From Eledone cirrhosa (lineage: Eukaryota): DNA of 64,000 nucleotides. The translations under genes were made by a program, and so were the position numbers. Of this stretch, positions 16,798 to 63,797 are shown in pieces (position 1 is the first letter of the stretch; each line of letters begins with the position of its first letter). A model generated the notes under the pieces. That model searched no databases. It was given only the letters and a program-made list of their open reading frames with translations, and was not told the origin of the DNA. Location: assembly GCA_964016885.1 (NCBI GenBank), contig OZ024741.1, forward strand, positions 387,624,001 through 387,688,000. The letters are read 5' to 3'.

Positions 16798-17325
16798 CAG
16801 AGGCTGCTATTACAACCAAACCCCACTGAAGGTGGTGTAGTGGGTCTTCTCCCACCACCTTCACTAGAGGTTGCTATCACAACCAAACCCCTCTGAAGGT
16901 GGTGTAGTGGGTCTTCTCCCACCACCTTCACTAGAGGTTGCTATCACAACCAAACCCCTCTGAAGGTGGTGTAGTGGGTCTTCTCCCACCACCTCTACCA
17001 GAGGTTGCTATCACAACCAAACCCCTCTGAAGGTGGTGTAGTGGGTCTTCTCCCACCACCTTCACTAGAGGTTGCTATCACAACCAAACCCCTCTGAAGG
17101 TGGTGTAGTGGGTCTTCTCCCACCACCTTCACTAGAGGTTGCTATCACAACCAAACCCCTCTGAAGGTGGTGTAGTGGGTCTTCTCCCACCACCTCCACT
17201 AGAGGCTGCTATCACAATCAAACTCCTCTGAAGGTGGTGTAGTGGTTCTTCTCCCACCACACCACTACCTTCAGAGATTGCTATCACAACCAAACCCCAC
17301 TGAAGGGGTGTAGTAGGTCTCCCAC
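16798..17325. repeat. 67-bp minisatellite, about 8 copies, each with an internal hairpin
   Basis: Units start at 16867, 16934, 17001 etc.; tgaaggtggtg...caccaccttca is an 11-bp inverted repeat. Confidence 0.95.
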
Positions 17326-18237: not shown

Positions 18238-19304
18238 ATAGAGTATAAAGGTTGAAACACAGACAATTTCTTCCAGAGTAGGGGAAAGAGATAGAAGAAA
18301 GAGTGGCTAGTTGATTTTCATCAACTCCTAGAGTCTCCCCAACAACGTCGTTTTTACCTGCTCAAAACGTCTAGAGAGAGCTAAGATGGAGTTTCCACTG
18401 ATTGCACTGCCTGATTGGTTGAAGGCTGTGTGTACTTGGATACATTGCAGTTTCCAAGGACAAAGCCACTTCTATCTAGGGAAGGGGTATAGTAGATTGT
18501 ATTGCCTTGTTAATTTATCAACTCAGAGTATGTAAAAGACAAAATCAATCTTTTTGTCATTCAACTTATGACCATCCTTACTTTTTGTCTCTTTAAGGCT
18601 GGCTATATTGGACTATAGAATCCAGTGTGTCCTTTCCTTCTTTAAGACAATAGGTAGTAGTGATTTGAAGCAAATTTAGTTGCTATACCTAGCGGGGCTA
18701 GTAACCATGTAGAGGCTCCATTGCTGGAATATATATTTAGTTTTTGTGTTATAGGTCTCTTCTTATCCCCCTCCCCATCCCAGTTAGATTTACATATCTG
18801 TAAGGCATGGTGGTTGGTTTGGGTGAGTAGGTGGATGGGGAACGGCTTTCTGCTGACATTAACTTCACTACTTTCAAAGATAACAGAATTTACTTCTTGC
18901 TTACTCATCAGAGGTCATGACATCGAAAAAAATTATTAAAACAAACTTCATGAATATAAGTAGGTTCATTAAAGAACCCACTTCATGTCTTTCTGACAGA
19001 ATTGCTTGTCTGAACATAGTTGAAGGAGGTGTAATTAAAGATACCTTTCTATACATCAATCAATAATTATCTTACACACATTAAATAAATGGTGTTAGTG
19101 TTTTATTTTGTTTTATTTTGTAATCAGAAGTGTCTTTCAATGAATTGTTGTTGTTATGTAGACCTTAGCCCTGCTCAACCTTGTCTGAGCAGTCATGTGA
19201 TCAAAGGTGTTCCAGCGGTGATTAGCTAGGCTTCTTGTATATCTGCAAGTAAGTTTGACCTATGTGTCCTTCCATTTATATACATACTTACATACACAAC
19301 AAAA

Positions 19305-19620
19305 AGTATCCAACCCACCCAGTAAGGTGGACGTGTTGATAACACGAAAAAAGCACCCAGCCCACCCTGTAAAGTGGTTGTGTTGGTGGCATGATGAAAA
19401 GCACCCAGTTTACACTGTAAGGTGGTCATTTTGGTGCTTCAATGAAAAGCACCCAGTCCAAGCTGTAAATGTGGCTGGCATTAGGAAGGGCATCCAGCCG
19501 TAGAAACCAAACCAGAAACAGTTCTGTATGAGTACCTGATCTGACTTGTCTCATAACGGGACAAATCGTATAACGCATGCTAGCATGGATAAATGGCCAT
19601 TAAACAGTGAAGATGATGAT
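19305..19620 (+). mobile_element. RTE 3'UTR-derived fragment
   Basis: Repeated cacccag...ctgtaaagtgg units, ggaagggcatccagccgtagaaac motif, gatgatgat tail. Similar pieces at 1066-1270(-), 26040-26195, 29545-29795, 32355-32536, 53750-54065 and 54995-55215. Confidence 0.75.
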
Positions 19621-22064: not shown

Positions 22065-22632
22065 ATCATCATCATCATTACCATTTTACGCCCATTTTTC
22101 CATGCTGGCATGGGCAATGTTAGGTCAGGTGTCAATGTCTTGCTCATACAGAACTGATTTTGGCTGGTTTCTACAGCTGGATGCCCTTCCTTGCGCTAAC
22201 TTCATCTACAGTGAGTACTGGGTGCTGTTTGTCGTGATACCTACATGACCACTTTACAGTGTGGACTGGGTGCTGTTTGTCGTGATACCTACTTGACCAC
22301 TTTACAGTGTGGACTGGATGCTTTTTGTCGTGACATCTACTTGACCACTTTACAGTGTGGACTGGATGCTTTTTGTCGTGACACCTACAAGACCACTTTA
22401 CAGTGTTGGCTGGGAACTTTTTACCATGTCACCATCTATGGTGATGTATGGGAGGGTGGGGTAGAGTGGTGTATACAGTATATATGCTTCAGGTTCAGCT
22501 TGTGCCCCTGGGAAGTCGGGACTTCTGTATAACCGCGTAACGCCAGTGATCTCCATCCTGTGTCATCGCCTTTGAGAGGTGCAATTGGGCAAGGTCAGCT
22601 TTTATCGCTTCATCCCAAGTCTTCCTGGGCCA
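22065..22632 (-). mobile_element. RTE family 1 3' end with expanded 48-bp 3'UTR repeat
   Basis: Homologous to 1712-2110; (CAT)n on + strand at 22065; 4-5 tandem 48-bp units at 22218-22430. Confidence 0.85.
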
Positions 22633-29157: not shown

Positions 29158-29450
29158 AGGCCTCCATAAAGTTTCCAAAATTCTACTGACAGTATATTAT
29201 CCAACCTGAAACTATAGGAGAGACTTGCCCATGTTGCTTATGTAGTGGGAGGGAATCTTAAACCATGTGGTCAAGAAGCAAACTCCTTAACCATACAACC
29301 CTACATGTTGAACCATGTGGTAACTCCTTAACCATACAGCCATAGATGTTGAACCATGTGGTAAAGAAGAAAACTCTTTAACCATACAGCCATACATGTT
29401 GAACAATGTGGGAATGAAGCAAACTCCTTAACCACACAATCATACATGTT
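29158..29450 (-). mobile_element. SINE S2 with 4x tandemly repeated 5' head
   Basis: Body at 29158-29260, then aaccatgtgg...aaactccttaaccatacagccatacatgttg four times. Confidence 0.8.
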
Positions 29451-30251: not shown

Positions 30252-31691
30252 TTAACTCTTTTGATACCAACCCATCTGAAACCACCCTGGCTTTTATTAT
30301 ATAAAACTGCCTGTTTTAAAGTGTTCATATATTAAAATATTTCATCATAATTTTATTTAAGAACTTTTTTTCAAGTAATGATCCAAACTTAATAATTACA
30401 AAATTAGTTATTTTACTTGAAGCTATCTACAATGTCTATGGATCCTTAATGAGACTGAAAAAGGTTTATATCATTAGCAGTCTTCCTCTCGATTTCTGCT
30501 GTGCATCTTCTACAAGCAAAGTACTCCCTTCCTGTTAGTCTACTTGTTATCCCACTACATCTTTTGTGCACCCAAGATTTACATTGTGTACATTGCATGG
30601 AGTTTATGCCTACTCCTTTTCTGCATATTGAGCATGGCCACTTTCCTGAGAGAATCTGGGTCCTCTCTTCTCTCCTACTCACTAGCACTTTAGTTTTGGC
30701 TAAGTTTACTCTCAGGCCTTTTGATTCCAAATTCAGTTTCCATAATTGGAATTTATTTTCTAACTCTTTATTGGTTTCAACTATAAGGACCAAATGATCT
30801 GCATAGAGAAACTTCCATTGGCAGCCCATTTTAAACTCCTCTGTTATAGCCTGGAGAACTATGATGAACAACAATGGGCTAAGAATTGAATCTTGATGAA
30901 CTTCTACCTGTACCTTGAATTCCTTGCTAAACTCATTTCCTACTCTCACTTTACTGACAGCTCCTCTGTGCATAGCTTTCATTGCGCTCACAAGCCATTC
31001 TTCTATATCTAATTTCCTTAAGGACCACCAGATAACAGATCGGGGTAGTCTATCAAAGGCCTTTTCTAGATCAACAAAAGCTAAATGTAGTGATTTGTTT
31101 TTGGCTAAGAACTTCTTCTGTAGTTGCCTCGCTAAGAGCAGTGCATCTGTAGTGCTTTTCCCAGGCATGAAACCAAACTGCATCTCATCTATTTTGACTA
31201 TTTCCCTAATTAGCTGTGCTATAATTCTTTCGGTCACTTTCATAATTTGGTCCATTAGTTTTATTCTTCTATAATTGCTCATTTTTAGAGCATCATCTTT
31301 GCCCTTGTAGCAATTTATGATTGTACTGCTGCACCAGACATTGGGTATGACGATGTCATGTATTACTTGATTTACTATACAGGTTTCTATTTTGACTCCT
31401 ACCTCTCCCGATGCTTTCAGTATCTCAACAATTATTTCTGATGGTCTTGCAGTTTTACCATTTTTCATCTTCTTGATTGCGTCTTTGACCTTAAAACTAT
31501 CAACTTCAATAGCTGGTCATTCCTTTGGGTAAGTTGGGGGTAGTTTCTTTTCCTCCCATTCATTCTCTACATTCATTGATCTCTCATAGTAACATTTCCA
31601 GACCTCTTGGAAATGCTACTATGAGAGATCACTATTAATTGAAATGCATGGGCAGTGTATCTTTTTAGAAACATGGTAACAAAAGGGTTAA
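30252..31691 (-). mobile_element. M1 MITE hosting an RTE fragment
   Basis: ttaactcttttgatacc...ggtaacaaaagggttaa ends. Confidence 0.78.
30418..31610 (-). mobile_element. RTE internal RT fragment with no 3' tail, nested in a TTAA MITE
   Basis: ORF 30446-31468 has RT motifs (AFVDLEKAFD, LYADH) and WPCSICRKGVGINSMQCTQCKSWVHKRC. Confidence 0.92.
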
Positions 31692-35340: not shown

Positions 35341-35550
35341 ACCATTCTGTGTATCCTGACAAAGAATGGAAAACTCCCAACAACATATTGTTTGAGATAT
35401 TTTTAGCCAAACTGAAAGCTTCTCATGGTCGAGAAATTAAACTGTCTCTGAAAGACTGTCAGGAATTTACAAAGTCTTTGACAAAACGAAAGACTGAGAG
35501 AACCATGTCAGCTTCTTCTTTATTCAATGAAACACAGCATGAAGAATCAG
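35341..35550 (+). CDS. SZT2: SZT2-like exon C (...PNNILFEIFLAKLKASHGREIKLSLKDCQEF...)
   Basis: tcttcag acceptor, gtaaag donor, 210 nt, phase 1 to 1. Lies within ORF 35331-35627; phases consistent with neighbours. Confidence 0.88.
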
Positions 35551-35984
35551 GTAAAGAAGCTTTTCACTTGTTTAACCCTTTAAGTGAACATAATTCTAAG
35601 GAAATACAATCTATTTTAATTAATTAACAAAGACTTTTGAAGGATTTACTAAAAATATTATTTTATTACTAAGATAGTAACTTAACATGGTTCTTATAAA
35701 AAATTATGTTAGAAAATTTTAATTTAAATTATCATTATCTTCATTCCGACCACAGTCGAGCATTCCTAACAAAGTCCCTCCATAATTCACAATTTTCTAT
35801 TGCTCCTGGCAACTGCTCCCTACTGAGGTTTGTATCGTCTGAGAGTTGATCGATGAAGGTTCGAGCAAGTCTTCCTTAATTTAAATAGGCACCCTTTAAA
35901 ATGGGTGGTTTTGTTTTATAGAACCAGAGCTGGTTTTGGCTGGACTGGTATCAAATGGGTTATATTCTTTCATTAGTTTCAAAG

Positions 35985-38900
35985 GTACGGTATTTGTTTT
36001 AATAAAACTTGGAAGGATGATATGCACTGTTGACCTGGATAAGGTTTGAAATCAGAATGTAAAGAGAAGTAACCAAATAGCACAATGTATTTTGTCTGAC
36101 ACTCTACTGATTTTGTCAAAAGCTCAATGTATTTTGTCTGACACTCTACTGATTCTGTCAATAGCACAATGTATTTTGTCTGACACTCTACTGATTCTGT
36201 CAAAAGCTCAATGTATTTTGTCTGACACTCTACTGATTCTGTCAATAGCACAATGTATTTTGTCTGACACTACTGATTCTGTCAATAGCTCAATGTATTT
36301 TGTCTGACACTCTACTGATTCTGTCAAAAGCTCAATGTATTTTGTCTGACACTATTGATTCTGTCAATAGCTCAATGTATTTTGTCTGACACTCTACTGA
36401 TTCTGTCAATAGCTCAATGTATTTTGTCTGACACTACTGATTCTGTTAATAGCACAATGTATTTTGTCTGACACTATTGATTCTGTCAATAGCACAATGT
36501 ATTTTGTCTGACACTCTACTGATTCTGTCAATAGCACAATGTATTTTGTCTGACACTATTGATTCTGTCAATAGCACAATGTATTTTGTCTGACACTCTA
36601 CTGATTCTGTCAATAGCTCAATGTATTTTGTCTGACACTCTACTGATTCTGTCAATAGCACAATGTATTTTGTCTGACACTATTGATTCTGTCAATAGCA
36701 CAATGTATTTTGTCTGACACTCTACTGATTCTGTCAAAAGCACAATGTATTTTGTCTGACACTCTACTAATTCTGTCAATAGCACAATGTATTTTGTCTG
36801 ACACTCTACTGATTCTGTCAATAGCTCAATGTATTTTGTCTGACACTCTACTGATTCTGTCAATAGCACAATGTATTTTGTCTGACACTATTGATTCTGT
36901 CAATAGCTCAATGTATTTTGTCTGACACTCTACTGATTCTGTCAATAGCACAATGTATTTTGTCTGACACTCTACTGATTCTGTCAATAGCTCAATGTAT
37001 TTTGTCTGACACTCTACTGATTCTGTCAATAGCACAATGTATTTTGTCTGACACTATTGATTCTGTCAATAGCACAATGTATTTTGTCTGACACTATTGA
37101 TTCTGTCAATAGCTCAATGTATTTTGTCTGACACTATTGATTCTGTCAATAGCTCAATGTATTTTGTCTGACACTCTTCTGATTCTGTCAATAGCACTAT
37201 GTATTTTGTTTGACACTCTACTGATTCTGTCAATAGCACAATGTATTTTGTTTGACACTATTGATTCTGTCAAAAGCTCAATGTATTTTGTCTGACACTA
37301 TTGATTCTGTCAAAAGCTCAATGTATTTTGCTTGACACTACTGATTCTGTCAATAGCTCAATGTATTTTGTCTGACACTCTACTGATTCTGTCAATAGCA
37401 CAATGTATTTTGCTTGACACTACTGATTCTGTCAAAAGCTCAATGTATTTTGTCTGACACTCTACTGATTCTGTCAATAGCACAATGTATTTTGTCTAAC
37501 ACTCTACTGATTATGTCAATAGCACAATGTATTTTGTCTGACACTCTACTGATTCTGTCAATAGCACAATGTATTTTGTCCGACACTATTGAATCTGTCA
37601 ATAGCTCAATGTATTTTGTCTGACACTCTACTGATTCTGTCAATAGCACAATGTATTTTGTCTGACACTCTACTGATTCTGTCAATAGCACAATGTATTT
37701 TGTCTGACACTCTACTGATTCTGTCAATAGCTCAATGTATTTTGTCTGACACTCTACTGATTCTGTCAATAGCACAATGTATTTTGTCTGACACTATTGA
37801 TTCTGTCAAAAGCTCAATGTATTTTGTCTGACACTCTACTGATTCTGTCAATAGCACAATGTATTTTGTCTGACACTATTTATTCTGTCAATAGCACAAT
37901 GTATTTTGTCTGACACTCTTCTGATTCTGTCAAAAGCTCAATGTATTTTGTCTGACACTCTTCTGATTCTGTCAAAAGCACAATGTATTTTGTCTGACAC
38001 TATTGATTCTGTCAATAGCACAATGTATTTTGTCTGACACTCTACTGATTCTGTCAAAAGCACAATGTATTTTGTCTGACACTCTACTAATTCTGTCAAT
38101 AGCACAATGTATTTTGTCTGACACTCTACTGATTCTGTCAATAGCTCAATGTATTTTGTCTGACACTCTACTGATTCTGTCAATAGCACAATGTATTTTG
38201 TCTGACACTATTGATTCTGTCAATAGCTCAATGTATTTTGTCTGACACTCTACTGATTCTGTCAATAGCACAATGTATTTTGTCTGACACTCTACTGATT
38301 CTGTCAATAGCTCAATGTATTTTGTCTGACACTCTACTGATTCTGTCAATAGCACAATGTATTTTGTCTGACACTATTGATTCTGTCAATAGCACAATGT
38401 ATTTTGTCTGGCACTATTGATTCTGTCAATAGCTCAATGTATTTTGTCTGACACTATTGATTCTGTCAATAGCTCAATGTATTTTGTCTGACACTCTTCT
38501 GATTCTGTCAATAGCACTATGTATTTTGTTTGACACTCTACTGATTCTGTCAATAGCACAATGTATTTTGTTTGACACTATTGATTCTGTCAAAAGCTCA
38601 ATGTATTTTGTCTGACACTATTGATTCTGTCAAAAGCTCAATGTATTTTGCTCGACACTACTGATTCTGTCAATAGCTCAATGTATTTTGTCTGACACTC
38701 TACTGATTCTGTCAATAGCACAATGTATTTTGCTTGACACTACTGATTCTGTCAAAAGCTCAATGTATTTTGTCTGACACTCTACTGATTCTGTCAATAG
38801 CACAATGTATTTTGTCTAACACTCTACTGATTATGTCAATAGCACAATGTATTTTGTCTGACACTCTACTGATTCTGTCAATAGCACAATGTATTTTGTC

Positions 38901-41900
38901 CGACACTATTGAATCTGTCAATAGCTCAATGTATTTTGTCTGACACTCTACTGATTCTGTCAATAGCACAATGTATTTTGTCTGACACTCTACTGATTCT
39001 GTCAATAGCACAATGTATTTTGTCTGACACTCTACTGATTCTGTCAATAGCTCAATGTATTTTGTCTGACACTCTACTGATTCTGTCAATAGCACAATGT
39101 ATTTTGTCTGACACTATTGATTCTGTCAATAGCACAATGTATTTTGTCTGACACTCTTCTGATTCTGTCAAAAGCTCAATGTATTTTGTCTGACACTCTA
39201 CTGATTCTGTCAATAGCACAATGTATTTTGTCTGACACTCTACTGATTCTGTCAATAGCTCAATGTATTTTGTCTGACACTCTACTGATTCTGTCAATAG
39301 CACAATGTATTTTGTCTGACACTATTGATTCTGTCAATAGCACAATGTATTTTGTCTGACACTATTGATTCTGTCAATAGCTCAATGTATTTTGTCTGAC
39401 ACTATTGATTCTGTCAATAGCTCAATGTATTTTGTCTGACACTCTTCTGATTCTGTCAATAGCACTATGTATTTTGTTTGACACTCTACTGATTCTGTCA
39501 ATAGCACAATGTATTTTGTTTGACACTATTGATTCTGTCAAAAGCTCAATGTATTTTGTCTGACACTATTGATTCTGTCAAAAGCTCAATGTATTTTGCT
39601 TGACACTACTGATTCTGTCAATAGCTCAATGTATTTTGTCTGACACTCTACTGATTCTGTCAATAGCACAATGTATTTTGCTTGACACTACTGATTCTGT
39701 CAAAAGCTCAATGTATTTTGTCTGACACTCTACTGATTCTGTCAAAAGCTCAATGTATTTTGTCTGACACTCTACTGATTCTGTCAATAGCACAATGTAT
39801 TTTGTCTAACACTCTACTGATTATGTCAATAGCACAATGTATTTTGTCTGACACTCTACTGATTCTGTCAATAGCACAATGTATTTTGTCCGACACTATT
39901 GAATCTGTCAATAGCTCAATGTATTTTGTCCGACACTATTGAATCTGTCAATAGCTCAATGTATTTTGTCTGACACTCTACTGATTCTGTGAATAGCACA
40001 ATGTATTTTGTCTGACACTCTACTGATTCTGTCAATAGCACAATGTATTTTGTCTGACACTCTACTGATTCTGTCAATAGCTCAATGTATTTTGTCTGAC
40101 ACTCTACTGATTCTGTCAATAGCACAATGTATTTTGTCTGACACTATTGATTCTGTCAAAAGCTCAATGTATTTTGTCTGACACTCTACTGATTCTGTCA
40201 ATAGCACAATGTATTTTGTCTGACACTATTGATTCTGTCAATAGCACAATGTATTTTGTCTGACACTCTTCTGATTCTGTCAAAAGCTCAATGTATTTTG
40301 TCTGACACTCTTCTGATTCTGTCAAAAGCTCAATGTATTTTGTCTGACACTCTACTGATTCTGTCAATAGCACAATGTATTTTGTCTGACACTACTGATT
40401 CTGTCAATAGCTCAATGTATTTTGTCTGACACTCTACTGATTCTGTCAATAGCACAATGTATTTTGTCTGACACTATTGATTCTGTCAAAAGCTCAATGT
40501 ATTTTGTCTGACACTCTACTGATTCTGTCAATAGCACAATGTATTTTGTCTGACACTATTGATTCTGTCAATAGCACAATGTATTTTGTCTGACACTCTT
40601 CTGATTCTGTCAAAAGCTCAATGTATTTTGTCTGACACTCTTCTGATTCTGTCAAAAGCTCAATGTATTTTGTCTGACACTCTACTGATTCTGTCAATAG
40701 CACAATGTATTTTGTTTGACACTACTGATTCTGTCAATAGCACAATGTATTTTGTCTGACACTCTACTGATTCTGTCAATAGCTCAATGTATTTTGTCTG
40801 ACACTCTACTGATTCTGGCAATAGCACAATGTATTTTGTCTGACACTCTACTGATTCTGTCAATAGCACAATGTATTTTGTCTGACACTATTGATTCTGT
40901 CAATAGCTCAATGTATTTTGTCTGACACTCTACTGATTCTGTCAATAGCTCAATGTATTTTGTCTGACATTACTGATTCTGTCAATAGCACAATGTATTT
41001 TGTCTGACACTATTGATTCTGTCAATAGCACAATGTATTTTGTCTGACACTATTGATTCTGTCAATAGCACAATGTATTTTGACTGACACTCTACTGATT
41101 CTGTCAATAGCACAATGTATTTTGTCTGACACTATTGATTCTGTCAATAGCACAATGTATTTTGTCTGACACTCTACTGATTCTGTCAATAGCTCAATGT
41201 ATTTTGTCTGACACTCTACTGATTCTGTCAATAGCACAATGTATTTTGTCTGACACTATTGATTCTGTCAATAGCACAATGTATTTTGTCTGACACTCTA
41301 CTGATTCTGTCAAAAGCACAATGTATTTTGTCTGACACTCTACTGATTCTGTCAATAGCACAATGTATTTTGTCTGACACTCTACTGATTCTGTCAATAG
41401 CTCAATGTATTTTGTCTGACACTCTACTGATTCTGTCAATAGCACAATGTATTTTGCTTGACACTACTGATTCTGTCAAAAGCTCAATGTATTTTGTCTG
41501 ACACTCTACTGATTCTGTCAATAGCACAATGTATTTTGTCTAACACTCTACTGATTATGTCAATAGCACAATGTATTTCGTCTGACACTCTACTGATTCT
41601 GTCAATAGCACAATGTATTTTGTCCGACACTATTGAATCTGTCAATAGCTCAATGTATTTTGTCTGACACTCTACTGATTCTGTCAATAGCACAATGTAT
41701 TTTGTCTGACACTCTACTGATTCTGTCAATAGCACAATGTATTTTGTCTGACACTCTACTGATTCTGTCAATAGCTCAACGTATTTTGTCTGACACTCTA
41801 CTGATTCTGTCAATAGCACAATGTATTTTGTCTGACACTATTGATTCTGTCAAAAGCTCAATGTATTTTGTCTGACACTCTACTGATTCTGTCAATAGCA

Positions 41901-44900
41901 CAATGTATTTTGTCTGACACTATTGATTCTGTCAATAGCACAATGTATTTTGTCTGACACTCTTCTGATTCTGTCAAAAGCTCAATGTATTTTGTCTGAC
42001 ACTCTTCTGATTCTGTCAAAAGCTCAATGTATTTTGTCTGACACTCTACTGATTCTGTCAATAGCACAATGTATTTTGTTTGACACTACTGATTCTGTCA
42101 ATAGCACAATGTATTTTGTCTGACACTCTACTGATTCTGTCAATAGCTCAATGTATTTTGTCTGACACTCTACTGATTCTGTCAATAGCACAATGTATTT
42201 TGTCTGACACTCTACTGATTCTGTCAATAGCACAATGTATTTTGTCTGACACTATTGATTCTGTCAATAGCTCAATGTATTTTGTCTGACACTCTACTGA
42301 TTCTGTCAATAGCACAATGTATTTTGTCTGACACTATTGATTCTGTCAATAGCACAATGTATTTTGTCTGACACTCTACTGATTCTGTCAAAAGCACAAT
42401 GTATTTTGTCTGACACTCTACTGATTCTGTCAATAGCACAATGTATTTTGTCTGACACTATTGATTCTGTCAATAGCACAATGTATTTTGTCTGACACTA
42501 TTGATTCTGTCAATAGCACAATGTATTTTGTCTGACACTCTACTGATTCTGTCAATAGCACAATGTATTTTGTCTGACACTATTGATTCTGTCAATAGCA
42601 CAATGTATTTTGTCTGACACTCTACTGATTCTGTCAATAGCTCAATGTATTTTGTCTGACACTCTACTGATTCTGTCAATAGCACAATGTATTTTGTCTG
42701 ACACTATTGATTCTGTCAATAGCACAATGTATTTTGTCTGACACTCTACTGATTCTGTCAAAAGCACAATGTATTTTGTCTGACACTCTACTAATTCTGT
42801 CAATAGCACAATGTATTTTGTCTGACACTCTACTGATTCTGTCAATAGCTCAATGTATTTTGTCTGACACTCTACTGATTCTGTCAATAGCACAATGTAT
42901 TTTGTCTGACACTATTGATTCTGTCAATAGCTCAATGTATTTTGTCTGACACTCTACTGATTCTGTCAATAGCACAATGTATTTTGTCTGACACTCTACT
43001 GATTCTGTCAATAGCTCAATGTATTTTGTCTGACACTCTACTGATTCTGTCAATAGCACAATGTATTTTGTCTGACACTATTGATTCTGTCAATAGCACA
43101 ATGTATTTTGTCTGACACTATTGATTCTGTCAATAGCTCAATGTATTTTGTCTGACACTCTTCTGATTCTGTCAATAGCACTATGTATTTTGTTTGACAC
43201 TCTACTGATTCTGTCAATAGCACAATGTATTTTGTTTGACACTATTGATTCTGTCAAAAGCTCAATGTATTTTGTCTGACACTATTGATTCTGTCAAAAG
43301 CTCAATGTATTTTGCTTGACACTACTGATTCTGTCAATAGCTCAATGTATTTTGTCTGACACTCTACTGATTCTGTCAATAGCACAATGTATTTTGCTTG
43401 ACACTACTGATTCTGTCAAAAGCTCAATGTATTTTGTCTGACACTCTACTGATTCTGTCAAAAGCTCAATGTATTTTGTCTGACACTCTACTGATTCTGT
43501 CAATAGCACAATGTATTTTGTCTAACACTCTACTGATTATGTCAATAGCACAATGTATTTTGTCTGACACTGTACTGATTCTGTCAATAGCACAATGTAT
43601 TTTGTCCGACACTATTGAATCTGTCAATAGCTCAATGTATTTTGTCTGACACTCTACTGATTCTGTGAATAGCACAATGTATTTTGTCTGACACTCTACT
43701 GATTCTGTCAATAGCACAATGTATTTTGTCTGACACTCTACTGATTCTGTCAATAGCTCAATGTATTTTGTCTGACACTCTACTGATTCTGTCAATAGCA
43801 CAATGTATTTTGTCTGACACTATTGATTCTGTCAAAAGCTCAATGTATTTTGTCTGACACTCTACTGATTCTGTCAATAGCACAATGTATTTTGTCTGAC
43901 ACTATTGATTCTGTCAATAGCACAATGTATTTTGTCTGACACTCTTCTGATTCTGTCAAAAGCTCAATGTATTTTGTCTGACACTCTTCTGATTCTGTCA
44001 AAAGCTCAATGTATTTTGTCTGACACTCTACTGATTCTGTCAATAGCACAATGTATTTTGTTTGACACTACTGATTCTGTCAATAGCACAATGTATTTTG
44101 TCTGACACTCTACTGATTCTGTCAATAGCTCAATGTATTTTGTCTGACACTCTACTGATTCTGTCAATAGCACAATGTATTTTGTCTGACACTCTACTGA
44201 TTCTGTCAATAGCACAATGTATTTTGTCTGACACTACTGATTCTGTCAATAGCTCAATGTATTTTGTCTGACACTCTACTGATTCTGTCAATAGCACAAT
44301 GTATTTTGTCTGACACTATTGATTCTGTCAATAGCACAATGTATTTTGTCTGACACTACTGATTCTGTCAATAGCTCAATGTATTTTGTCTGACACTCTA
44401 CTGATTCTGTCAATAGCACAATGTATTTTGTCTGACACTCTACTGATTCTGTCAATAGCACAATGTATTTTGTCTGACACTCTACTGATTCTGTCAATAG
44501 CTCAATGTATTTTGTCTGACACTCTACTGATTCTGTCAATAGCTCAATGTATTTTGTCTGACACTACTGATTCTGTCAATAGCACAATGTATTGATTCTG
44601 TCAATAGCACAATGTATTTTGTCTGACACTACTGATTCTGTCAATAGCACAATGTATTTTGTCTGACACTCTACTGATTCTGTCAATAGCACAATGTATT
44701 TTGTCTGACACTACTGATTCTGTCAATAGCTCAATGTATTTTGTCTGACATTCTACTGATTCTGTCAATAGCACAATGTATTTTGTCTGACACTCTACTG
44801 ATTCTGTCAATAGCACAATGTATTTTGTCTGACACTATTGATTCTGTCAATAGCTCAATGTATTTTGTCTGACACTCTACTGATTCTGTCAATAGCTCAA

Positions 44901-47900
44901 TGTATTTTGTCTGACACTACTGATTCTGTCAATAGCACAATGTATTTTGTCTGACACTCTACTGATTCTGTCAATAGCACAATGTATTTTGTCTGACACT
45001 CTACTGATTCTGTCAATAACACAAAGTATTTTGTCTGACACTATTGATTCTGTCAATAGCTCAATGTATTTTGTCTGACACTCTACTGATTCTGTCAATA
45101 GCACAATGTATTTTGTCTGACACTCTACTGATTCTGTCAATAGTACAATGTATTTTGTCTGACACTATTGATTCTGTCAATAGCTCAATGTATTTTGTCT
45201 GACACTATTGATTCTGTCAATAGCACAATGTATTTTGTCTGACACTATTGATTCTGTCAATAGCTCAATGTATTTTGTCTGACACTATTGATTCTGTCAA
45301 TAGCACAATGTATTTTGTCTGACACTCTACTGATTCTGTCAATAGTACAATGTATTTTGTCTGACACTATTGATTCTGTCAATAGCTCAATGTATTTTGT
45401 CTGACACTATTGCTTCTGTCAATAGCTCAATGTATTTTGTCTGACACTATTGATTCTGTCAATAGCACAATGTATTTTGTCTGACACTATTGATTCTGTC
45501 AATAGCTCAATGTATTTTGTCTGACACTATTGATTCTGTCAATAGCACAATGTATTTTGTCTGACACTCTACTGATTCTGTCAATAGCACAATGTATTTT
45601 GTCTGACACTATTGATTCTGTCAATAGCTCAATGTATTTTGTCTGACACTATTGATTCTGTCAATAGCACAATGTATTTTGTCTGACACTATTGATTCTG
45701 TCAATAGCTCAATGTATTTTGTCTGACACTATTGATTCTGTCAATAGCACAATGTATTTTGTCTGACACTCTACTGATTCTGTCAATAGCTCAATGTATT
45801 TTGTCTGACACTCTACTGATTCTGTCAATAGCACAATGTATTTTGTCTGACACTCTACTGATTCTGTCAATAGCACAATGTATTTTGTCTGACACTCTAC
45901 TGATTCTGTCAATAGCACAATGTATTTTGTCTGACACTCTACTGATTCTGTCAATAGCACAATGTATTTTGTCTGACACTCTACTGATTCTGTCAATAGC
46001 ACAATGTATTTTGTCTGACACTCTACTGATTCTGTCAATAGTACAATGTATTTTGTCTGACACTATTGATTCTGTCAATAGCTCAATGTATTTTGTCTGA
46101 CACTATTGATTCTGTCAATAGCACAATGTATTTTGTCTGACACTCTACTGATTCTGTCAATAGCACAATGTATTTTGTCTGACACTCTACTGATTCTGTC
46201 AATAGCTCAATGTATTTTGTCTGACACTACTGATTCTGTCAATAGCACAATGTATTTTGTCTGACACTCTACTGATTCTGTCAATAGCACAATGTATTTT
46301 GTCTGACACTCTACTGATTCTGTCAATAGCACAATGTATTTTGTCTGACACTCTACTGATTCTGTCAATAGTACAATGTATTTTGTCTGACACTATTGAT
46401 TCTGTCAATAGCTCAATGTATTTTGTCTGACACTATTGATTCTGTCAATAGCACAATGTATTTTGTCTGACACTCTACTGATTCTGTCAATAGCACAATG
46501 TATTTTGTCTGACACTCTACTGATTCTGTCAATAGCTCAATGTATTTTGTCTGACACTATTGATTCTGTCAATAGCACACTGTATTTTGTCTGACACTAT
46601 TGATTCTGTCAATAGCACAATGTATTTTGTCTGACACTATTGATTCTGTCAATAGCACAATGTATTTTGTCTGACACTATTGATTCTGTCAATAGCACAA
46701 TGTATTTTGTCTGACACTCTACTGATTCTGTCAATAGCTCAATGTATTTTGTCTGACACTATTGATTCTGTCAATAGCTCAATGTATTTTGTCTGACACT
46801 CTACTGATTCTGTCAATAGCACAATGTATTTTGTCTGACACTCTACTGATTCTGTCAATAGCACAATGTATTTTGTCTGACCCTCTACTGATTCTGTCAA
46901 TAGCACAATGTATTTTGTCTGACACTCTACTGATTCTGTCAATAGCACAATGTATTTAATCTGACACTCTACTGATTCTGTCAATAGCACAATGTATTTT
47001 GTCTGACACTATTGATTCTGTCAATAGCACAATGTATTTTGTCTGACACTACTGATTCTGTCAATAGCTCAATGTATTTTGTCTGACACTATTGATTCTG
47101 TCAATAGCTCAATGTATTTTGTCTGACACTATTGATTCTGTCAATAGCTCAATGTATTTTGTCTGACACTCTACTGATTCTGTCAATAGCTCAATGTATT
47201 TTGTCTGACACTCTACTGATTCTGTCAATAGCACAATGTATTTTGTCTGACACTATTGATTCTATCAATAGCACAATATATTTTGTCTGACACTATTGAT
47301 TCTGTCAATAGCACAATGTATTTTGTCTGACACTATTGATTCTGTCAATAGCTCAATGTATTTTGTCTGACACTATTGATTCTGTCAATAGCACAATGTA
47401 TTTTGTCTGACACTCTACTGATTCTGTCAAAAGCACAATGTATTTTGTCTGACACTATTGATTCTGTCAATAGCACAATGTATTTTGTCTGACACTATTG
47501 ATTCTGTCAATAGCTCAATGTATTTTGTCTGACACTATTGATTCTGTCAATAGCACAATGTATTTTGTCTGACACTACTGATTCTGTCAATAGCACAATG
47601 TATTTTGCTTGACACTACTGATTCTGTCAAAAGCTCAATGTATTTTGTCTGACACTCTACTGATTCTGTCAATAGCACAATGTATTTTGTCTAACACTCT
47701 ACTGATTATGTCAATAGCACAATGTATTTTGTCTGACACTCTACTGATTCTGTCAATAGCACAATGTATTTTGTCTGACACTATTGATTCTGTCAATAGC
47801 ACAATGTATTTTGTCTGACACTCTTCTGATTCTGTCAAAAGCTCAATGTATTTTGTCTGACACTCTTCTGATTCTGTCAAAAGCTCAATGTATTTTGTCT

Positions 47901-50900
47901 GACACTCTACTGATTCTGTCAATAGCACAATGTATTTTGTTTGACACTACTGATTCTGTCAATAGCACAATGTATTTTGTCTGACACTCTACTGATTCTG
48001 TCAATAGCTCAATGTATTTTGTCTGACACTCTACTGATTCTGTCAATAGCACAATGTATTTTGTCTGACACTCTACTGATTCTGTCAATAGCACAATGTA
48101 TTTTGTCTGACACTACTGATTCTGTCAATAGCTCAATGTATTTTGTCTGACACTCTACTGATTCTGTCAATAGCACAATGTATTTTGTCTGACACTATTG
48201 ATTCTGTCAATAGCACAATGTATTTTGTCTGACACCACTGATTCTGTCAATAGCTCAATGTATTTTGTCTGACACTCTACTGATTCTGTCAATAGCACAA
48301 TGTATTTTGTCTGACACTCTACTGATTCTGTCAATAGCACAATGTATTTTGTCTGACACACTACTGATTCTGTCAATAGCTCAATGTATTTTGTCTGACA
48401 CTCTACTGATTCTGTCAATAGCTCAATGTATTTTGTCTGACACTACTGATTCTGTCAATAGCACAATGTATTGATTCTGTCAATAGCACAATGTATTTTG
48501 TCTGACACTACTGATTCTGTCAATAGCACAATGTATTTTGTCTGACACTCTACTGATTCTGTCAATAGCACAATGTATTTTGTCTGACACTACTGATTCT
48601 GTCAATAGCTCAATGTATTTTGTCTGACACTCTACTGATTCTGTCAATAGCACAATGTATTTTGTCTGTCACTCTACTGATTCTGTCAATAGCACAATGT
48701 ATTTTGTCTGACACTATTGATTCTGTCAATAGCTCAATGTATTTTGTCTGACACTCTACTGATTCTGTCAATAGCTCAATGTATTTTGTCTGACACTCTA
48801 CTGATTCTGTCAATAGCACAATGTATTTTGTCTGACACTCTACTGATTCTGTCAATAGCACAAAGTATTTTGTCTGACACTCTACTGATTCTGTCAATAG
48901 TACAATGTATTTTGTCTGACACTATTGATTCTGTCAATAGCTCAATGTATTTTGTCTGACACTATTGATTCTGTCAATAGCACAATGTATTTTGTCTGAC
49001 ACTATTGATTCTGTCAATAGCTCAATGTATTTTGTCTGACACTATTGATTCTGTCAATAGCACAATGTATTTTGTCTGACACTCTACTGATTCTGTCAAT
49101 AGTACAATGTATTTTGTCTGACACTATTGATTCTGTCAATAGCTCAATGTATTTTGTCTGACACTATTGCTTCTGTCAATAGCTCAATGTATTTTGTCTG
49201 ACACTATTGATTCTGTCAATAGCACAATGTATTTTGTCTGACACTATTGATTCTGTCAATAGCTCAATGTATTTTGTCTGACACTATTGATTCTGTCAAT
49301 AGCACAATGTATTTTGTCTGACACTCTACTGATTCTGTCAATAGCTCAATGTATTTTGTCTGACACTCTACTGATTCTGTCAATCGCACAATGTATTTTG
49401 TCTGACACTCTACTGATTCTGTCAATAGCACAATGTATTTTGTCTGACACTCTACTGATTCTGTCAATAGCACAATGTATTTTGTCTGACACTCTACTGA
49501 TTCTGTCAATAGCACAATGTATTTTGTCTGACACTCTACTGATTCTGTCAATAGCACAATGTATTTTGTCTGACACTCTACTGATTCTGTCAATAGTACA
49601 ATGTATTTTGTCTGACACTATTGATTCTGTCAATAGCTCAATGTATTTTGTCTGACACTATTGCTTCTGTCAATAGCTCAATGTATTTTGTCTGACACTA
49701 TTGATTCTGTCAATAGCACAATGTATTTTGTCTGACACTATTGATTCTGTCAATAGCTCAATGTATTTTGTCTGACACTATTGATTCTGTCAATAGCACA
49801 ATGTATTTTGTCTGACACTCTACTGATTCTGTCAATAGCTCAATGTATTTTGTCTGACACTCTACTGATTCTGTCAATCGCACAATGTATTTTGTCTGAC
49901 ACTCTACTGATTCTGTCAATAGCACAATGTATTTTGTCTGACACTCTACTGATTCTGTCAATAGCACAATGTATTTTGTCTGACACTCTACTGATTCTGT
50001 CAATAGCACAATGTATTTTGTCTGACACTCTACTGATTCTGTCAATAGCACAATGTATTTTGTCTGACACTCTACTGATTCTGTCAATAGTACAATGTAT
50101 TTTGTCTGACACTATTGATTCTGTCAATAGCTCAATGTATTTTGTCTGACACTATTGATTCTGTCAATAGCACAATGTATTTTGTCTGACACTCTACTGA
50201 TTCTGTCAATAGCACAATGTATTTTGTCTGACACTCTACTGATTCTGTCAATAGCTCAATGTATTTTGTCTGACACTACTGATTCTGTCAATAGCACAAT
50301 GTATTTTGTCTGACACTCTACTGATTCTGTCAATAGCACAATGTATTTTGTCTGACACTCTACTGATTCTGTCAATAGCACAATGTATTTTGTCTGACAC
50401 TATTGATTCTGTCAATAGCACAATGTATTTTGTCTGACACTCTACTGATTCTGTCAATAGCTCAATGTATTTTGTCTGACACTATTGATTCTGTCAATAG
50501 CTCAATGTATTTTGTCTGACACTCTACTGATTCTGTCAATAGCACAATGTATTTTGTCTGACACTCTACTGATTCTGTCAATAGCACAATGTATTTTGTC
50601 TGACACTCTACTGATTTTGTCAATAGCACAATGTATTTTGTCTGACACTCTACTGATTCTGTCAATAGCACAATGTATTTAATCTGACACTCTACTGATT
50701 CTGTCAATAGCACAATGTATTTTGTCTGACACTATTGATTCTGTCAATAGCACAATGTATTTTGTCTGACACTACTGATTCTGTCAATAGCTCAATGTAT
50801 TTTGTCTGACACTATTGATTCTGTCAATAGCTCAATGTATTTTGTCTGACACTATTGATTCTGTCAATAGCTCAATGTATTTTGTCTGACACTCTACTGA

Positions 50901-51891
50901 TTCTGTCAATAGCTCAATGTATTTTGTCTGACACTCTACTGATTCTGTCAATAGCACAATGTATTTTGTCTGACACTATTGATTCTATCAATAGCACAAT
51001 ATATTTTGTCTGACACTATTGATTCTGTCAATAGCACAATGTATTTTGTCTGACACTATTGATTCTGTCAATAGCTCAATGTATTTTGTCTGACACTATT
51101 GATTCTGTCAATAGCACAATGTATTTTGTCTGACACTCTACTGATTCTGTCAAAAGCACAATGTATTTTGTCTGACACTATTGATTCTGTCAATAGCTCA
51201 ATGTATTTTGTCTGACACTATTGATTCTGTCAATAGCACAATGTATTTTGTCTGACACTACTGATTCTGTCAATAGCACAATGTATTTTGTCTGACACTA
51301 TTGATTCTGTCAATAGCTCAATGTATTTTGTCTGACACTCTACTGATTCTGTCAATAGCACAATGTATTTTGTCTGACACTCTACTGATTCTGTCAATAG
51401 CACAATGTATTTTGTCTGACACTCTACTGATTCTGTCAATAGCACAATGTATTTTGTCTGACACTCTACTGATTCTGTCAATAGCACAATGTATTTTGTC
51501 TGACACTATTTATTCTGTCTGACACTCTACTGATTCTGTCAATAGCACAATGTATTTTGTCTGACACTATTGATTCTGTCAATAGTTCAATGTATTTTGT
51601 CTGACACTCTACTGATTCTGTCAATAGCACAATGTATTTTGTCTGACACTCTACTGATTCTGTCAATAGCACAATGTATTTTGTCTGACACTCTACTGAT
51701 TCTGTCAATAGCACAATGTATTTTGTCTGACACTCTACTGATTCTGTCAATAGCACAATGTATTTTGTCTGACACTCTACTGATTCTGTCAATAGCACAA
51801 TGTATTTTGTCTGACACTCTACTGATTCTGTCAATAGCTCAATGTATTTTGTCTGACACTCTACTGATTCTGTCATCCAATGCCACCACCA
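35985..51891 (-). mobile_element. Old S1-type tRNA-SINE split by the 40/42-bp satellite
   Basis: Minus strand: head ggtggtggcattggatgacagaatcagtagag at 51891-51860. After the array: ctttacattctgatttcaaacc...ggtcaacagtgcatatcatccttcc...aaaacaaatacc (B box + core) at 36075-35988. Confidence 0.8.
36076..51875. repeat. Satellite, 40/42-bp unit (aatagcacaatgtattttgtctgacactctactgattctgtc), about 380 copies, 15.8 kb
   Basis: Direct reading; explains all LSDTLLILSIAQC / TESVECQTKYI ORFs. Confidence 0.99.
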
Positions 51892-53018
51892 TATACTTAA
51901 TCATAATTTGCAATATTAACATATTTTAAGAGGGTTTTGTAGTTTGCTTGGTGCACTGTGTTAGTGTATAAAGCAGTATGTTATTTGAAGACTCTGAAAA
52001 TGCAAAGCGGATGGTAGATTTTGGAATAAATTGAAGGTAACAAAGATGCTGGTGTGTCACCTGTTATTTTATTTACCTGTACTAATATTTCAGGTCTAAA
52101 AACCCTTCGCCAGAAGATTATAAGAAAATGGATTGAACTACCTGCTATTCTTGTCGTTATTTTTCTTCTTTTTAAGATTTGTAGCCAGGTTTTGATCATT
52201 TAAGTTGGATTAAATAGTAATAATTGCCATTGTAAAATCTGACTCTTTTAGATTATTGAAATAAGACAGCACCAAGTTTCACCATTTAAGGTGAGACTTG
52301 TTGTTACTGAAATCCAAGTCAGCATTCATCAACAGACCTGTAATTAAAGGCATATTTCAAAAGTTTATCAAGAATGTTCTTCCTTAATCTCCCCCCCCCC
52401 CCTCAAAAAAAGAAAAAAACATTAGCATATCATTTGAGTGAGATTTAACTAGAAGTTCAAGTGGCTACTAAAGGTGTTGGCATTAAAAAACTGTTTGAAA
52501 AGTCCTGTCCAACCCATACCGGCATGGGAAAGCAGAAGATATGTAAAAACAATGACAATGATGATAATTATATACTCGAATATAAGCCAACCCCACTCTT
52601 TTATGTCTGAGAAATGGGCAAAAATCCAAACCTTATTTATGTAGAATTTAAAGTTGGTGAAAATCGTCAAACTATTAACCCCAAATATAATCCGACTCCC
52701 CCTTCTACAATCGGCTTATTTTTGAGTATATATGGTGTACTTAATCACATTGCTTTGCATCCTGAATCCCCCCCCCCCCACACACACACATCACCACCAC
52801 CAACTCCACCTCATTATTCTCAAGTAAGAGGTGAATAGCTAAGAATGGAGAAAAACAATTCATAACATTAAAATATTTCTCTTGTCTAAAAAGAAATTTG
52901 TTTTCCAACAAAAGATAAAAGAATTCCTCTTAATTTAAAATCTAATATATAAAATATATTTTAATATTAAACCGAATCAAATTTTTCTTTTCCTTTTTTC
53001 CATTTTCCTTTTATGTAG

Positions 53019-53365
53019 ATTCTTTTTATGATAAAAGAACTAACCCAGGTGGACCAGAGGATACATGCAGTAAAGATTCAACAATTGGTAAAGATGGCTG
53101 CAACAATACTGCTCCAACAAAATGGTGCTGTTTTATTCAAGACATTAATCATTCACATATGTTCCTGATATTTGTCCCAGCATCTTTTGATGACTTGCTC
53201 ACTCTGAAATCCAGCAGCTTCACAGAGACATTGCATGATAATCTGGAGATTGTTGCAGTAAAGGAGTGGGACCTAGGTTGCCAGAAACTATCTGATCAGT
53301 TGTCTGATGAGGTGCTATCAAATAAAGAAAGACTTTCAAATGATTCATTGCCAACAACGGAACTG
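53019..53365 (+). CDS. SZT2: SZT2-like exon D (...KWCCFIQDINHSHMFLIFVPASFDDL...)
   Basis: Polypyrimidine tract + tgtag acceptor, gtaatt donor, 347 nt, phase 1 to 0. Resembles recalled SZT2 '[25 protein letters not shown]'. Confidence 0.88.
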
Positions 53366-59235: not shown

Positions 59236-59295
59236 GTGAGTTATGTAATGTTGTCTGGTTTGTTTCCCTTCAAAATATGATGTAGAAGTGGAGAG

Positions 59296-59942
59296 TGGTA
59301 GGAAGGGTATTCAGCCATAGAAAACTTGCCAAGCAGAGGTGAGAGAATTCTTCAGTTGTGTCAGGGGCACAACAACCTCTTTAGTGTTGGTGCCATGATA
59401 AAATGCAACCAGTACGCTCTGTAAAATGGTTGGTGATAAGAAGGGTGTGTACCTGTAGAAAACTTTCCAAAACAAGGTTGAGCGGACTCTTCAGTTGTGT
59501 CAAAGGCACAACAAGCACCTTAGGTGCAATAATAAAACTAACTCTATACACTTTGTAAAGTGGTTGGTGATAAGTAGGGCATCTAACCATAGAAAACTTG
59601 TCAAACAGAATTGAGAAGACTCTTCAATTGTGTCAAGGGCATGATAACCTCCCTAGTCTTAGTGTCACAATAAAACATGTCAAGTACACTCTGTCAAGTA
59701 GTTGGTGATAGGAAGGGCATCTGGCCATAGAAAACTTACCAAATAAATGGATCAGAGAACTCTTCAGTTGTGTCAAAGACATGACAACCTCCTTTGGGCT
59801 GATAACACAATAAAATGCAGCCAGCACGCTCTGTAAAGTGAAGGAATGTATATATGCAAGATGTGGGCCCCAGTTAAGTACTGATTTAGTCTGTGATGAC
59901 CCGTCCAACTCTTGCTATCATGGGAAATGGACATTAAATGAT
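59296..59942 (+). repeat. About 4 tandem diverged copies of a ~137-bp RTE-3'UTR-like unit
   Basis: (g)aaggg...ccatagaaaact...tcttcagttgtgtca...ctgtaaagtggttggtgata recurs at about 59300, 59440, 59575 and 59711. Confidence 0.8.
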
Positions 59943-60977: not shown

Positions 60978-61254
60978 TGATTATAATGGAGTATTCCACT
61001 ATTACTTTTGGAAAGGTGAGATAAGTTCAATGTACACTAAAAGTCCTCAGTGTATAAGGAATTTAAAAAAATATATATAAACCCATGCAAGCGTGGAAGA
61101 TGGCCGTTAAACGATGATGATGATGATATACTTTCAAAGTTCTTATTGAGGTCAGTATAGGTAGCAGAGCATTATTATTTAAAATGTAAAAAAACTAAGG
61201 TTAACAACTTAAATCCATTGTTTAACTATTCATATTGTAAACCAAGTAATACTA

Positions 61255-62970
61255 AATGGTGTTACACCGAATGATTGGTGCAACTACAAGGGTAAAGGAG
61301 ATGCACTAAATAGAGAAAACTATAGAGGCTTCAAGTTGATGAACCAGGTCATGAAAGTAACAGAAAGAGTTATAGCACAGCTGATTAGGGACTGGGTTAA
61401 ACTAGATGAGATGCAGTTCAGATTTGTGCCAGGTAAAAGCACTACAGATGCTCTCTTACTTGTGAAGCAGCTACAGGAGAAGTACAAACCATGTAAAGAG
61501 GAGCAGTCAGTAAAGTTAGGATTAACAATGACTGTAGCGAGGAATTTAGTGTGCAGGTTGGCATCCACCAGGGCTCTGTAGTTAGCCCTCTCCTATTTAT
61601 TATTGTTCTGCAGGCTATAACAGAGGTGTTTAAGACTGGCTGCCCATGGGAACTCCTGTATGTGAATGACCTTACACACATAGCTGAATCTATGGCAGAA
61701 TTAGAAAAGAAATTCCAAACCTGGAAGCATGGCCTAGAAACAAAGGGTCTTAAAGTCAACCTGACAAAGACTAAGATCCTAGTTAGTAGAAGGGAAAATA
61801 GAGCTCTGATCCCCTTTGCTCAATGTGAAGGAAAGGTGAAATTCCATCCTCTATTCCAAGGATACACAAGAAATGTAGTGGGATCTCAGGAAGTTTAGCT
61901 AAGGTTTTATATGTAGCCATTTCACCAGAGCAGTAAGCACCAAACAACCACAGAAAACAAGCGCTATCAAATTCTGGGAAGTAACCAGAGCGAGAACAGG
62001 ACGAAAGAAGTTCAGGGAGATACAATCACTGCTAGCTACAAAAGGCTTTTCCCTCAAAATGAGGGGTAGATTGTATGATGCATGTATACGAACAGCAATG
62101 TTGCATGGTAGTGAGGCCTGGGCACTGGGTGCAGAGGACTTGTGAAGATTGGTAAGAAATTAAGATTGCATGCTTTGATGGACATGAAATAGTAATATAT
62201 ATGAATGAAAAATTATAAACGAACTGAGAGAAATTAGTAATAAGAGGAATCAGATGCAGTGTGCAGGAGAGGAGAATGCGTTGGTATGGACATGTGATGT
62301 GTATGAAGGATGACAGCTGTATAGAAAGGTGCAGAGCACTCAAAATTGATGAAAGCTACGGAGTAGGAAGACCTGAGATGAGGTGATAAAAGCTGACCTT
62401 GCACAATTGCACCTCTCAAAGGTGACAACACAGGACCGAGATCTTTGGTGTTATGCAGTAATACAGAAGATCCACCTTCCCATGAGCACAAGCTGAAGTA
62501 TACATATAGTAATGCACCACCTTCACCTCCGCCCCCCTTCCATGCACTTCTCATGAGCACAGGCTGGAGCATACATTTAGTGTGCACCACCTTCACCTCC
62601 ATTTCCTTCCATTTACCTCCCACGTCCTGTCACTCTGCCACTCACACATATCCATATTCCCATCTCCCCAATCCCCACACACCTCTCCCACCAAAGTCCC
62701 CAGCCCACACTGAAAAGTGGTTGTGATGGCGACACGACAAAAAGCGCCCAGCCCACACTGTAAAGTGGTTGTGTAGGTGTCAACAAAAAGCACTCGGTAC
62801 TCACTGTAAATGTGGTTGGCATTAGGAAGGGCATCCAGGTGTAGAAACCAAGTCCAAAACAGTTCAGTATGAGCAAGACTTGGTCACCTGACCTGGCCTA
62901 TCTCACAACAGGACAACTCGTTTAACCCATGCTAACGCTGAAAAATGGACATTAAACGGTGATGATGATG
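61255..62970 (+). mobile_element. RTE family 1 copy with internal deletions
   Basis: NYKGKGDALNRENYRG, HQGSVVSPLLF, WYGHV remnants, 3'UTR, (GAT)n at 62960-62970. Confidence 0.9.
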
Positions 62971-63270
62971 TTTCTATACAGGTGATAATGGTACATACAT
63001 ATGCAAACAATAAGTTAATTGGAAACTGTTAATTGACAATTATTTACACCAAACATCATTCATATTACACCTGCATATCATCAGGAATTACAAAAAGGGG
63101 TAAAGTTTAACCAAATTCAACTTATCAGAATAGATATTATACCAAACATTCGGACATTGGCATACATTTAACGAAGACTGCACATGAAAACTTGCAAAGT
63201 TGTTAGAGATTGTGTTTATAGGTTGAGGTAAAAAGCATTACTTCATCATTTTAATATTATTAATATTTCT

Positions 63271-63458
63271 TGGATTGGCAGTATCAGTAGAGGGTCAGAC
63301 GCCATGCTTTGACGCATAGAGTTACGGCCCTTGCCATTATGAGTTCAAATCCCGCCGAGGTTAACTTTACCTTTCATCCTTACGGGGTCGATAAAATAAA
63401 GTACCAGTAATGTACTGGGTAATTGCTGGCCTTGTGCCAAAAGTAGAAACAATTATTA
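63271..63458 (+). mobile_element. tRNA-derived SINE S1, young subfamily
   Basis: A box tggcagtatcag, B box gagttcaaatcc; probable TSD atttcttg on both sides. Confidence 0.92.
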
Positions 63459-63797
63459 TTTCTTGTAATAGTTAGAAGAAAATTTATTGGTGGTTACATA
63501 TACAAAGAATATGAAAAGCAGGTAGTTCAGAGGCTATGGTAAGATTTTTGCATAAATAGATAAATATTATGTAGGAAACATGTAATTATCATGAATATTT
63601 GTCCAGTTTGAAGTTCAAATAAAAATATTTGATGATTATGGTAGTGCCCCAGCATGGTCTCAGTCTAATGACTTGGAAAATGCCATCTCCATATTTTCCT
63701 TAAAATGATCTCCTCCTCCTCCAAATGTCTTATGATAATTTTATTCCATCTTCAATATGTGAAATCCTTTTTAATCCCCCCGTCTCTGTTTGTCCAG

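What the first reader, a model, noticed from the sequence alone, without database searches (positions are those of the whole stretch)
35985..51891. 15.8-kb satellite expanded inside the Pol III promoter head of a single SINE
Seen: on the minus strand the SINE 5' end (ggtggtggcattgg..gacagaatcagtagag) enters the array at 51891-51875. The B box and SINE core resume directly after the last unit at 36075. The unit (gacagaatcagtagagtgtcagacaaaatacattgtgctatt) aligns to the A-box-to-spacer segment of S1 SINEs (cf. ggcagtatcagtagagggtcagacgccatgc at 63276). So ~42 bp of a ~200-bp SINE became about 380 copies, making up 90% of an SZT2 intron.
Basis: partly seen in the sequence, partly recalled or inferred. 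Interest (0 to 1): 0.78.

Follow-up and report, generated by a model that had tools for sequence, protein, structure and literature searches.

The report
Satellite grown from one SINE head
A 42-base piece from the front of one short jumping-gene (SINE) copy, inside an intron of a likely SZT2 gene, is repeated 384 times in this genome but only twice at the matching site in a related organism, and hundreds of other copies of the same SINE have repeated fronts, so the genome likely shows satellite DNA being born from SINEs.

Summary
Confirmed, and strengthened. Window 36076-51875 holds 384 units of 42/40 bp that match the A-box-and-spacer segment of an abundant SINE. A short SINE 5' remnant precedes the array and the SINE body resumes in register after it (minus strand). 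It fills 90% of a 17,468-bp intron of a likely SZT2 gene. One single-copy contig from a differently labelled organism spans both flanks with exactly two units, so a two-copy seed most likely grew to 384 here. Corrections: the B box is mutated; the host copy has no 3' tail or target-site duplication; no parent tRNA was found; and the locus is not unique. 745 genome loci show a duplicated head, and four other head arrays span 15-45 kb. The kind is known (squamate SINE-derived satellites, PMC10702118). The newer observation lies outside the window: most listed head duplications share one fixed 45-bp junction, are flanked by target-site duplications in about half of cases, and cluster near chromosome ends (33 of 37 on C1).

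The parts
36076..51875 (-). Tandem array, 384 units (224 x 42 bp, 157 x 40 bp, 2 x 25, 1 x 61); unit = SINE consensus positions 14-55 (A-box-like motif and spacer, no B box)
51878..51891 (-). Remnant of the SINE 5' end that enters the array (4-nt insertion before unit 1)
35985..36075 (-). SINE body resuming in register at consensus position 56; 3' end, tail and target-site duplication not found
36042..36053 (-). B-box-like motif, 9 of 12 to the family consensus, G of GTTC replaced
35341..35550 (+). Upstream exon of the likely SZT2 gene (donor GT at 35551)
   Evidence: no database hit of its own
53019..53365 (+). Downstream exon, weak match to human SZT2 1117-1150; in frame with the upstream exon
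63261..63461 (+). Dispersed, unexpanded young copy of the same SINE family, used as independent reference

Best explanation
The array is a SINE-derived satellite that likely grew in place: one old SINE copy, antisense in an intron of a likely SZT2 gene, carries its 42-bp head segment twice in a related organism and 384 times here, most likely through a seed duplication before the two lineages split, followed by unequal exchange and slippage in this lineage. Shown: collinear flanks, unit identity, the two-unit orthologous site, block duplications inside the array. Inferred: the direction (2 to 384), and the mechanism of the seed (short ATT microhomology, or a copying slip at insertion). Also inferred: that the array is neutral passenger DNA, because the units lack a B box and the host B box is mutated.
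For: Flanks and unit collinear with one consensus. In run X4 (organism B) a 484-bp contig of depth 15.5 (neighbouring single-copy contigs 16.2 and 17) aligns by letters 1-290 to window 35828-36117 (36 differences, 0 gaps). A contig of the same length, depth and strand aligns by letters 298-484 to 51840-52026 (19 differences, 0 gaps), with a joint going back 36 plus 6 letters, i.e. one extra 42-bp unit. The 42-bp units differ from their consensus by 2.0% on average, while the flanks differ from organism B by 10-12%. Exact internal repeats reach 688 bp at offsets of 0.5-6 kb, against at most 293 bp in 30 unit-order shuffles, as expected from block-wise unequal exchange. Other old-subfamily arrays resume in the SINE body in the same way (L001, L055, L056, L059). 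Seed duplication between short repeats followed by slippage, conversion or unequal crossing-over is the standard model for SINE-derived minisatellites (PMC6947457, passages).
Against: The orthologue rests on one contig in one run, recognised across two calls by length, depth, strand and complementary coordinates; there is no outgroup, so loss of copies in organism B is not excluded. The consensus shows no ungapped self-match of 7 of 10 or better at offset 42. A strict search for other old-subfamily duplications found 3 matches, none in this register. Four of the ten other arrays examined do not show a clear SINE body downstream in the stretch tested or were cut off (L052, L053, L054, L010). 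No target-site duplication marks the host copy.
Confidence: 0.8

Rival explanations
1. The array is ancestral and organism B collapsed it to two units by one deletion between outer units.
For: A single unequal exchange can remove almost all of an array (established knowledge); only two lineages were compared.
Against: Units here are only 2.0% from their consensus and show recent block duplications, so much of the present length is young, though homogenisation could also give this.
Confidence: 0.1
2. Units were imported from another head array by ectopic conversion into a resident SINE, rather than copied locally.
For: Related 40-42-bp arrays in nearly the same register exist on C4 and C6. In the genome's 45-bp class the junction holds bases missing from the first head at some loci.
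Against: The best other array is only 77% identical, and the two-unit state with the same junction is already present in organism B.
Confidence: 0.05
3. The array is real but its 15.8-kb length is inflated by assembly, or represents one allele of a very variable locus.
For: Exact internal repeats of 500-688 bp exist; no listed contig spans the array and no long reads were available.
Against: The array holds more than 16 distinct unit types in a non-periodic order, and no perfect multi-kilobase duplicate. A loose end into the array is seen in run X1 (1 contig, 13 letters), which may be the source sample and is not independent.
Confidence: 0.05

Closest known systems
SINE-derived satellites (sSat1-3) of squamate reptiles, Vassetzky, Kosushkin and Ryskov 2023, PMC10702118 (read parts 1-4 of 5 of the main text; supplements not read)
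   Same: Tandem unit is a sub-segment of a SINE; a few to over 1,000 units per locus; terminal units run on into the SINE; long loci are homogeneous with alternating subvariants; tendency to chromosome ends; orthologous loci can differ in copy number.
   Different: Units there are about 70-290 nt and in snakes include box B. Here the unit is 42/40 bp with the A-box side only, both SINE sides are kept (a minor variant there), the SINE family is unrelated, and the orthologue differs by about 380 units. The parts read describe no fixed junction at SINE nucleotide 1 with target-site duplications around the array.
Alu- and B1-derived minisatellites (Jurka and Gentles 2006; Bois et al. 1998), seen only as cited in the review PMC6947457 (passages)
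   Same: Short unit cut from a SINE and amplified in place; seed duplication followed by slippage, conversion or unequal crossing-over.
   Different: The units named in the review's table are 6-8 bp motifs, and it invokes 5-10-bp flanking repeats for the seed, which were not found here at offset 42.
tRNA-like tandem families of amphibians (PolIII/TAN, OAX, Rana/polIII, Hy/polIII), as summarised in PMC10702118
   Same: Tandem arrays containing Pol III promoter-like sequence.
   Different: Those units are about 200 nt or longer and have no demonstrated parent SINE; here the parent SINE is present in over 136,000 copies and flanks the array.

Membership tests
SINE-derived satellite (sSat kind) | Tandem unit is a part of a SINE, shorter than the SINE | tested here: met
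   38 of 42 to consensus 14-55; independent young copy hits at E 1.7e-7
SINE-derived satellite (sSat kind) | At least four middle monomers | tested here: met
   384 units
SINE-derived satellite (sSat kind) | Terminal unit continues into the SINE sequence | tested here: met
   both sides collinear
SINE-derived satellite (sSat kind) | High unit homogeneity, with locus-specific subvariants | tested here: met
   2.0% mean distance among 42-mers; 42- and 40-bp variants
SINE-derived satellite (sSat kind) | Subtelomeric position | tested here: inconclusive
   28.6 Mb from the end of a 416-Mb contig; one locus cannot show a tendency; the 45-bp class does
Squamate sSat1-3 families proper | Derived from Squam1/2/3, unit about 70-290 nt | tested here: not met
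   unit is 42/40 bp; Squam sequences were not compared directly
SINE (parent family) | Short, dispersed, high copy number | tested here: met
   about 200-220 bp; 136,277 and 223,863 exact two-motif matches
SINE (parent family) | Target-site duplications and simple-repeat tail | tested here: met
   seen in family copies; not found for the host copy
SINE (parent family) | Head derived from a tRNA, with A and B boxes | tested here: inconclusive
   A- and B-box-like motifs by recalled consensus; no Rfam tRNA match; 5 pattern hits, none a tRNA gene
SINE (parent family) | Transcribed by RNA polymerase III | not testable with these tools
   needs Pol III or TFIIIC occupancy or small-RNA data

The most novel reading that the evidence does not exclude
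The 5' head of this SINE family is a genome-wide satellite factory. A fixed junction joining nucleotide ~44 to nucleotide 1 is made again and again in copies of different subfamilies, most likely when reverse transcriptase re-copies the RNA's first 44 bases at insertion (rival: two-step conversion from existing arrays). These seeds grow into arrays of up to tens of kilobases near chromosome ends. Together with this locus (2 copies in one organism, 384 in the other) the genome would hold every stage of satellite birth from one retroposon, datable by target-site duplications and orthologues.
Probability: 0.35. Interest if true: 0.72.

Novelty: new variant of a known kind. Interest (0 to 1): 0.5.

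Why it matters
How satellite DNA is born is usually argued from finished arrays. Here one locus gives a before-and-after pair (two units against 384) inside a recognisable SINE. The same genome holds hundreds of head duplications of all sizes, about half of those examined bracketed by target-site duplications, so seed formation, positional bias and growth can be tested directly. The array also multiplies one intron about tenfold. On the gene's sense strand each unit ends in an AG after a pyrimidine-rich stretch (seen in the sequence; any effect on splicing is untested). The locus alone is an example of a described kind; the fixed-junction class is what a specialist would want to follow.

Tried and rejected
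Widespread satellite with unrelated flanks: rejected; other arrays share at most 77% and have their own periods. Coding potential: the array frames are only repetitive peptides broken by stops. Parent tRNA: not found by Rfam, a genome pattern or ARAGORN. Strong microhomology at offset 42: not found; the same-register search gave 3 matches, none in register. A general 'promoter hotspot': head duplications are 13-fold commoner than B-box duplications (745 of 136,277 against 92 of 223,863). But the 3' end gives 329 (no denominator, and by eye mostly nested tail pieces), close to the ~320 head cases left if the 57% share of the 45-bp class holds genome-wide, so the excess appears to be that one class. 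B-box arrays also exist (483 three-copy matches). Expression: no RNA holder listed. Pfam, the protein database and two of five PDB exon searches gave no SZT2 hit. Earlier findings of the scan: none shown. Literature searches for a cephalopod or invertebrate report of such arrays, or of fixed-junction head arrays, listed none by title or abstract start. One search was swamped by unrelated plant papers, and the library lacks most subscription papers.

Full report
The array is real. TRF finds period 42 from 36076 to 51875, and parsing gives 384 units, mostly 42 and 40 bp. The window is G000:C2:387624001-387688000 of a 3.0-Gb genome, 28.6 Mb from the end of a 416-Mb contig. That the animal is an octopod is my recollection from the repeat landscape; no call tested it.

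The parent is an abundant SINE. Sixty-five near-full-length copies give a ~200-bp young consensus with target-site duplications (TSDs) and an ATT-rich tail. Twenty-nine copies closest to the host give a 220-bp older consensus. Exact two-motif patterns match 136,277 and 223,863 places. The unit equals consensus 14-55 at 38 of 42; this consensus was selected with host sequence, but an independent young copy also hits the last unit plus body at E 1.7e-7. A 14-nt 5' remnant precedes the array (0.11% of 20,000 random 22-mers score as high), and the body resumes at position 56 and runs to about 145. The B-box-like motif is 9 of 12 and has lost the G of GTTC; the 3' end, tail and TSD were not found. 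No parent tRNA was found, so 'Pol III promoter' is a motif-level inference.

The host gene is likely SZT2: three of five exons tested hit human SZT2 weakly but in order (no hit in 39, 40). The flanking exons splice in frame across a 17,468-bp intron, 90.5% of which is array. The SINE is antisense to the gene.

The decisive test was the orthologous site. Eight runs were listed, five holding part of the 3' flank; four were laid on one flank and three on the other. In run X4, labelled as a different organism, a 484-bp contig of single-copy depth aligns by letters 1-290 to 35828-36117. A contig of the same length, depth and strand aligns by letters 298-484 to 51840-52026, with a joint that adds one 42-bp unit. 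Both flanks are thus joined by two units. The exon-bearing contig differs at 25 of 506 letters and the intron flanks at 10-12%. This is one contig in one run, and without an outgroup the direction is inferred.

Inside the array, 42-bp units are 2.0% from their consensus, and exact repeats reach 688 bp at offsets up to 6 kb, against at most 293 bp in 30 shuffles. This fits recent block-wise unequal exchange. The seed mechanism is weaker: only a short ATT overlap joins the unit ends, with no 7-of-10 ungapped self-match at offset 42, and a strict search found no other duplication in this register among 3 matches. By eye, the arrays on C4 and C6 use nearly the same register.

The locus is not unique. 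Searching with the array found other head arrays with periods 36-49 bp. Four are as long or longer: C5 14.9 kb, C3 over 15.3 kb, C1 over 31 kb and C4 about 45 kb (the middles of the C1 and C4 arrays were inferred from search hits, not read in full). A one-per-locus pattern finds 745 duplicated heads, against 92 B-box duplications and 329 at the 3' end.

Of the first 100 of the 745 rows, 57 (counted by eye) share one junction joining SINE nucleotide ~44 to nucleotide 1; an exact junction pattern matches 11,649 times. On C1, 33 of 37 such loci lie in the first 40 or last 26 Mb of 443 Mb, against 3 of 22 other head duplications (Fisher p 7e-9) and 5 of 42 3'-end duplications (by eye). The boundaries were chosen after seeing the data, and only C1 and part of C2 were listed.

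I read 61 loci (those 57 plus 4 with other junctions). The median is 12 heads, 35 have ten or more, and 28 of the 56 with a visible 5' end have an automatically called TSD of at least 10 bp, a few perhaps spurious. Their bodies belong to several subfamilies. In 8 of the 56, six of them with the 45-bp junction, the first head is 5'-truncated against a TSD while inner junctions carry more of the 5' end, which plain local duplication cannot give. Yet in 16 short loci the first and last heads share 10 non-consensus variants, against a mean of 1.7 in 10,000 shuffles, none reaching 10. Re-copying of the same RNA's first 44 bases at insertion fits both facts but does not explain the distal clustering. 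Two-step conversion from existing arrays fits the clustering but is more complex. I favour the first, weakly. The focal array has a different junction and belongs to an older subfamily.

Comparison with what is known. SINE-derived satellites with hundreds to over 1,000 units, SINE-extended ends and subtelomeric bias are described in squamates (PMC10702118, main text parts 1-4 of 5; its supplements, unread, show loci with both SINE termini and may bear on how unusual this structure is). Alu- and B1-derived minisatellites and the seed-then-expand model are reviewed in PMC6947457 (passages). PMC4758252 (passages) gave nothing on satellites. Eight searches (listings only) showed no cephalopod report and no fixed-junction head arrays.

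The locus works like a squamate sSat but is not a member of those families. It is a new variant of a known kind, made more useful by its two-unit orthologue and by the genome-wide class around it. Interest 0.5.

Noticed in passing
window 10987-16289 (array) and 16273-16482 (SINE), + strand: A second head-derived array in the same window: about 234 copies of a 22-bp unit that appears to join the 11-bp target-site duplication to part of the SINE 5' end; a complete SINE body follows and the same 11-mer recurs after its tail.
   Followed up: partly
L131-L149, L151, L158, L173-L212 (G000 C1 and C2): Fixed-junction 45-bp head arrays in front of SINE bodies of several subfamilies, often TSD-flanked, clustered near chromosome ends; 11,649 exact junction matches in the genome.
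   Followed up: partly
L058/L059 (C4:75.20-75.24 Mb), L010/L057/L221 (C5:23.44-23.45 Mb), L051/L223 (C3:356.57-356.59 Mb), L225/L226 (C1:3.02-3.06 Mb): Four further head arrays of about 45, 14.9, over 15.3 and over 31 kb, with periods 42, 45, 47 and 44-45 bp.
   Followed up: partly
L117-L130 (C2:331.48 Mb) and L107-L115 (C2:19.50 Mb): Arrays built from the B-box segment (44-bp and 20-bp periods), so other parts of the SINE also amplify, less often.
   Followed up: no
window 29281-29450, 19294-19474, 22207-22414, 62699-62818, 59295-59794, 16786-17320: Short tandem duplications (41-138-bp periods, 2-8 copies), several apparently inside other dispersed repeats, suggesting that tandem duplication within repeats is common here.
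   Followed up: no
window 30446-31516 (-) and about 61213-62400 (+): Decayed reading frames that look like LINE reverse-transcriptase fragments (recalled resemblance, not searched); a possible partner of the SINEs.
   Followed up: no
window 52181-52353: One contig of organism B skips 173 bp here, with 20 other letters between, an indel in the same intron.
   Followed up: no
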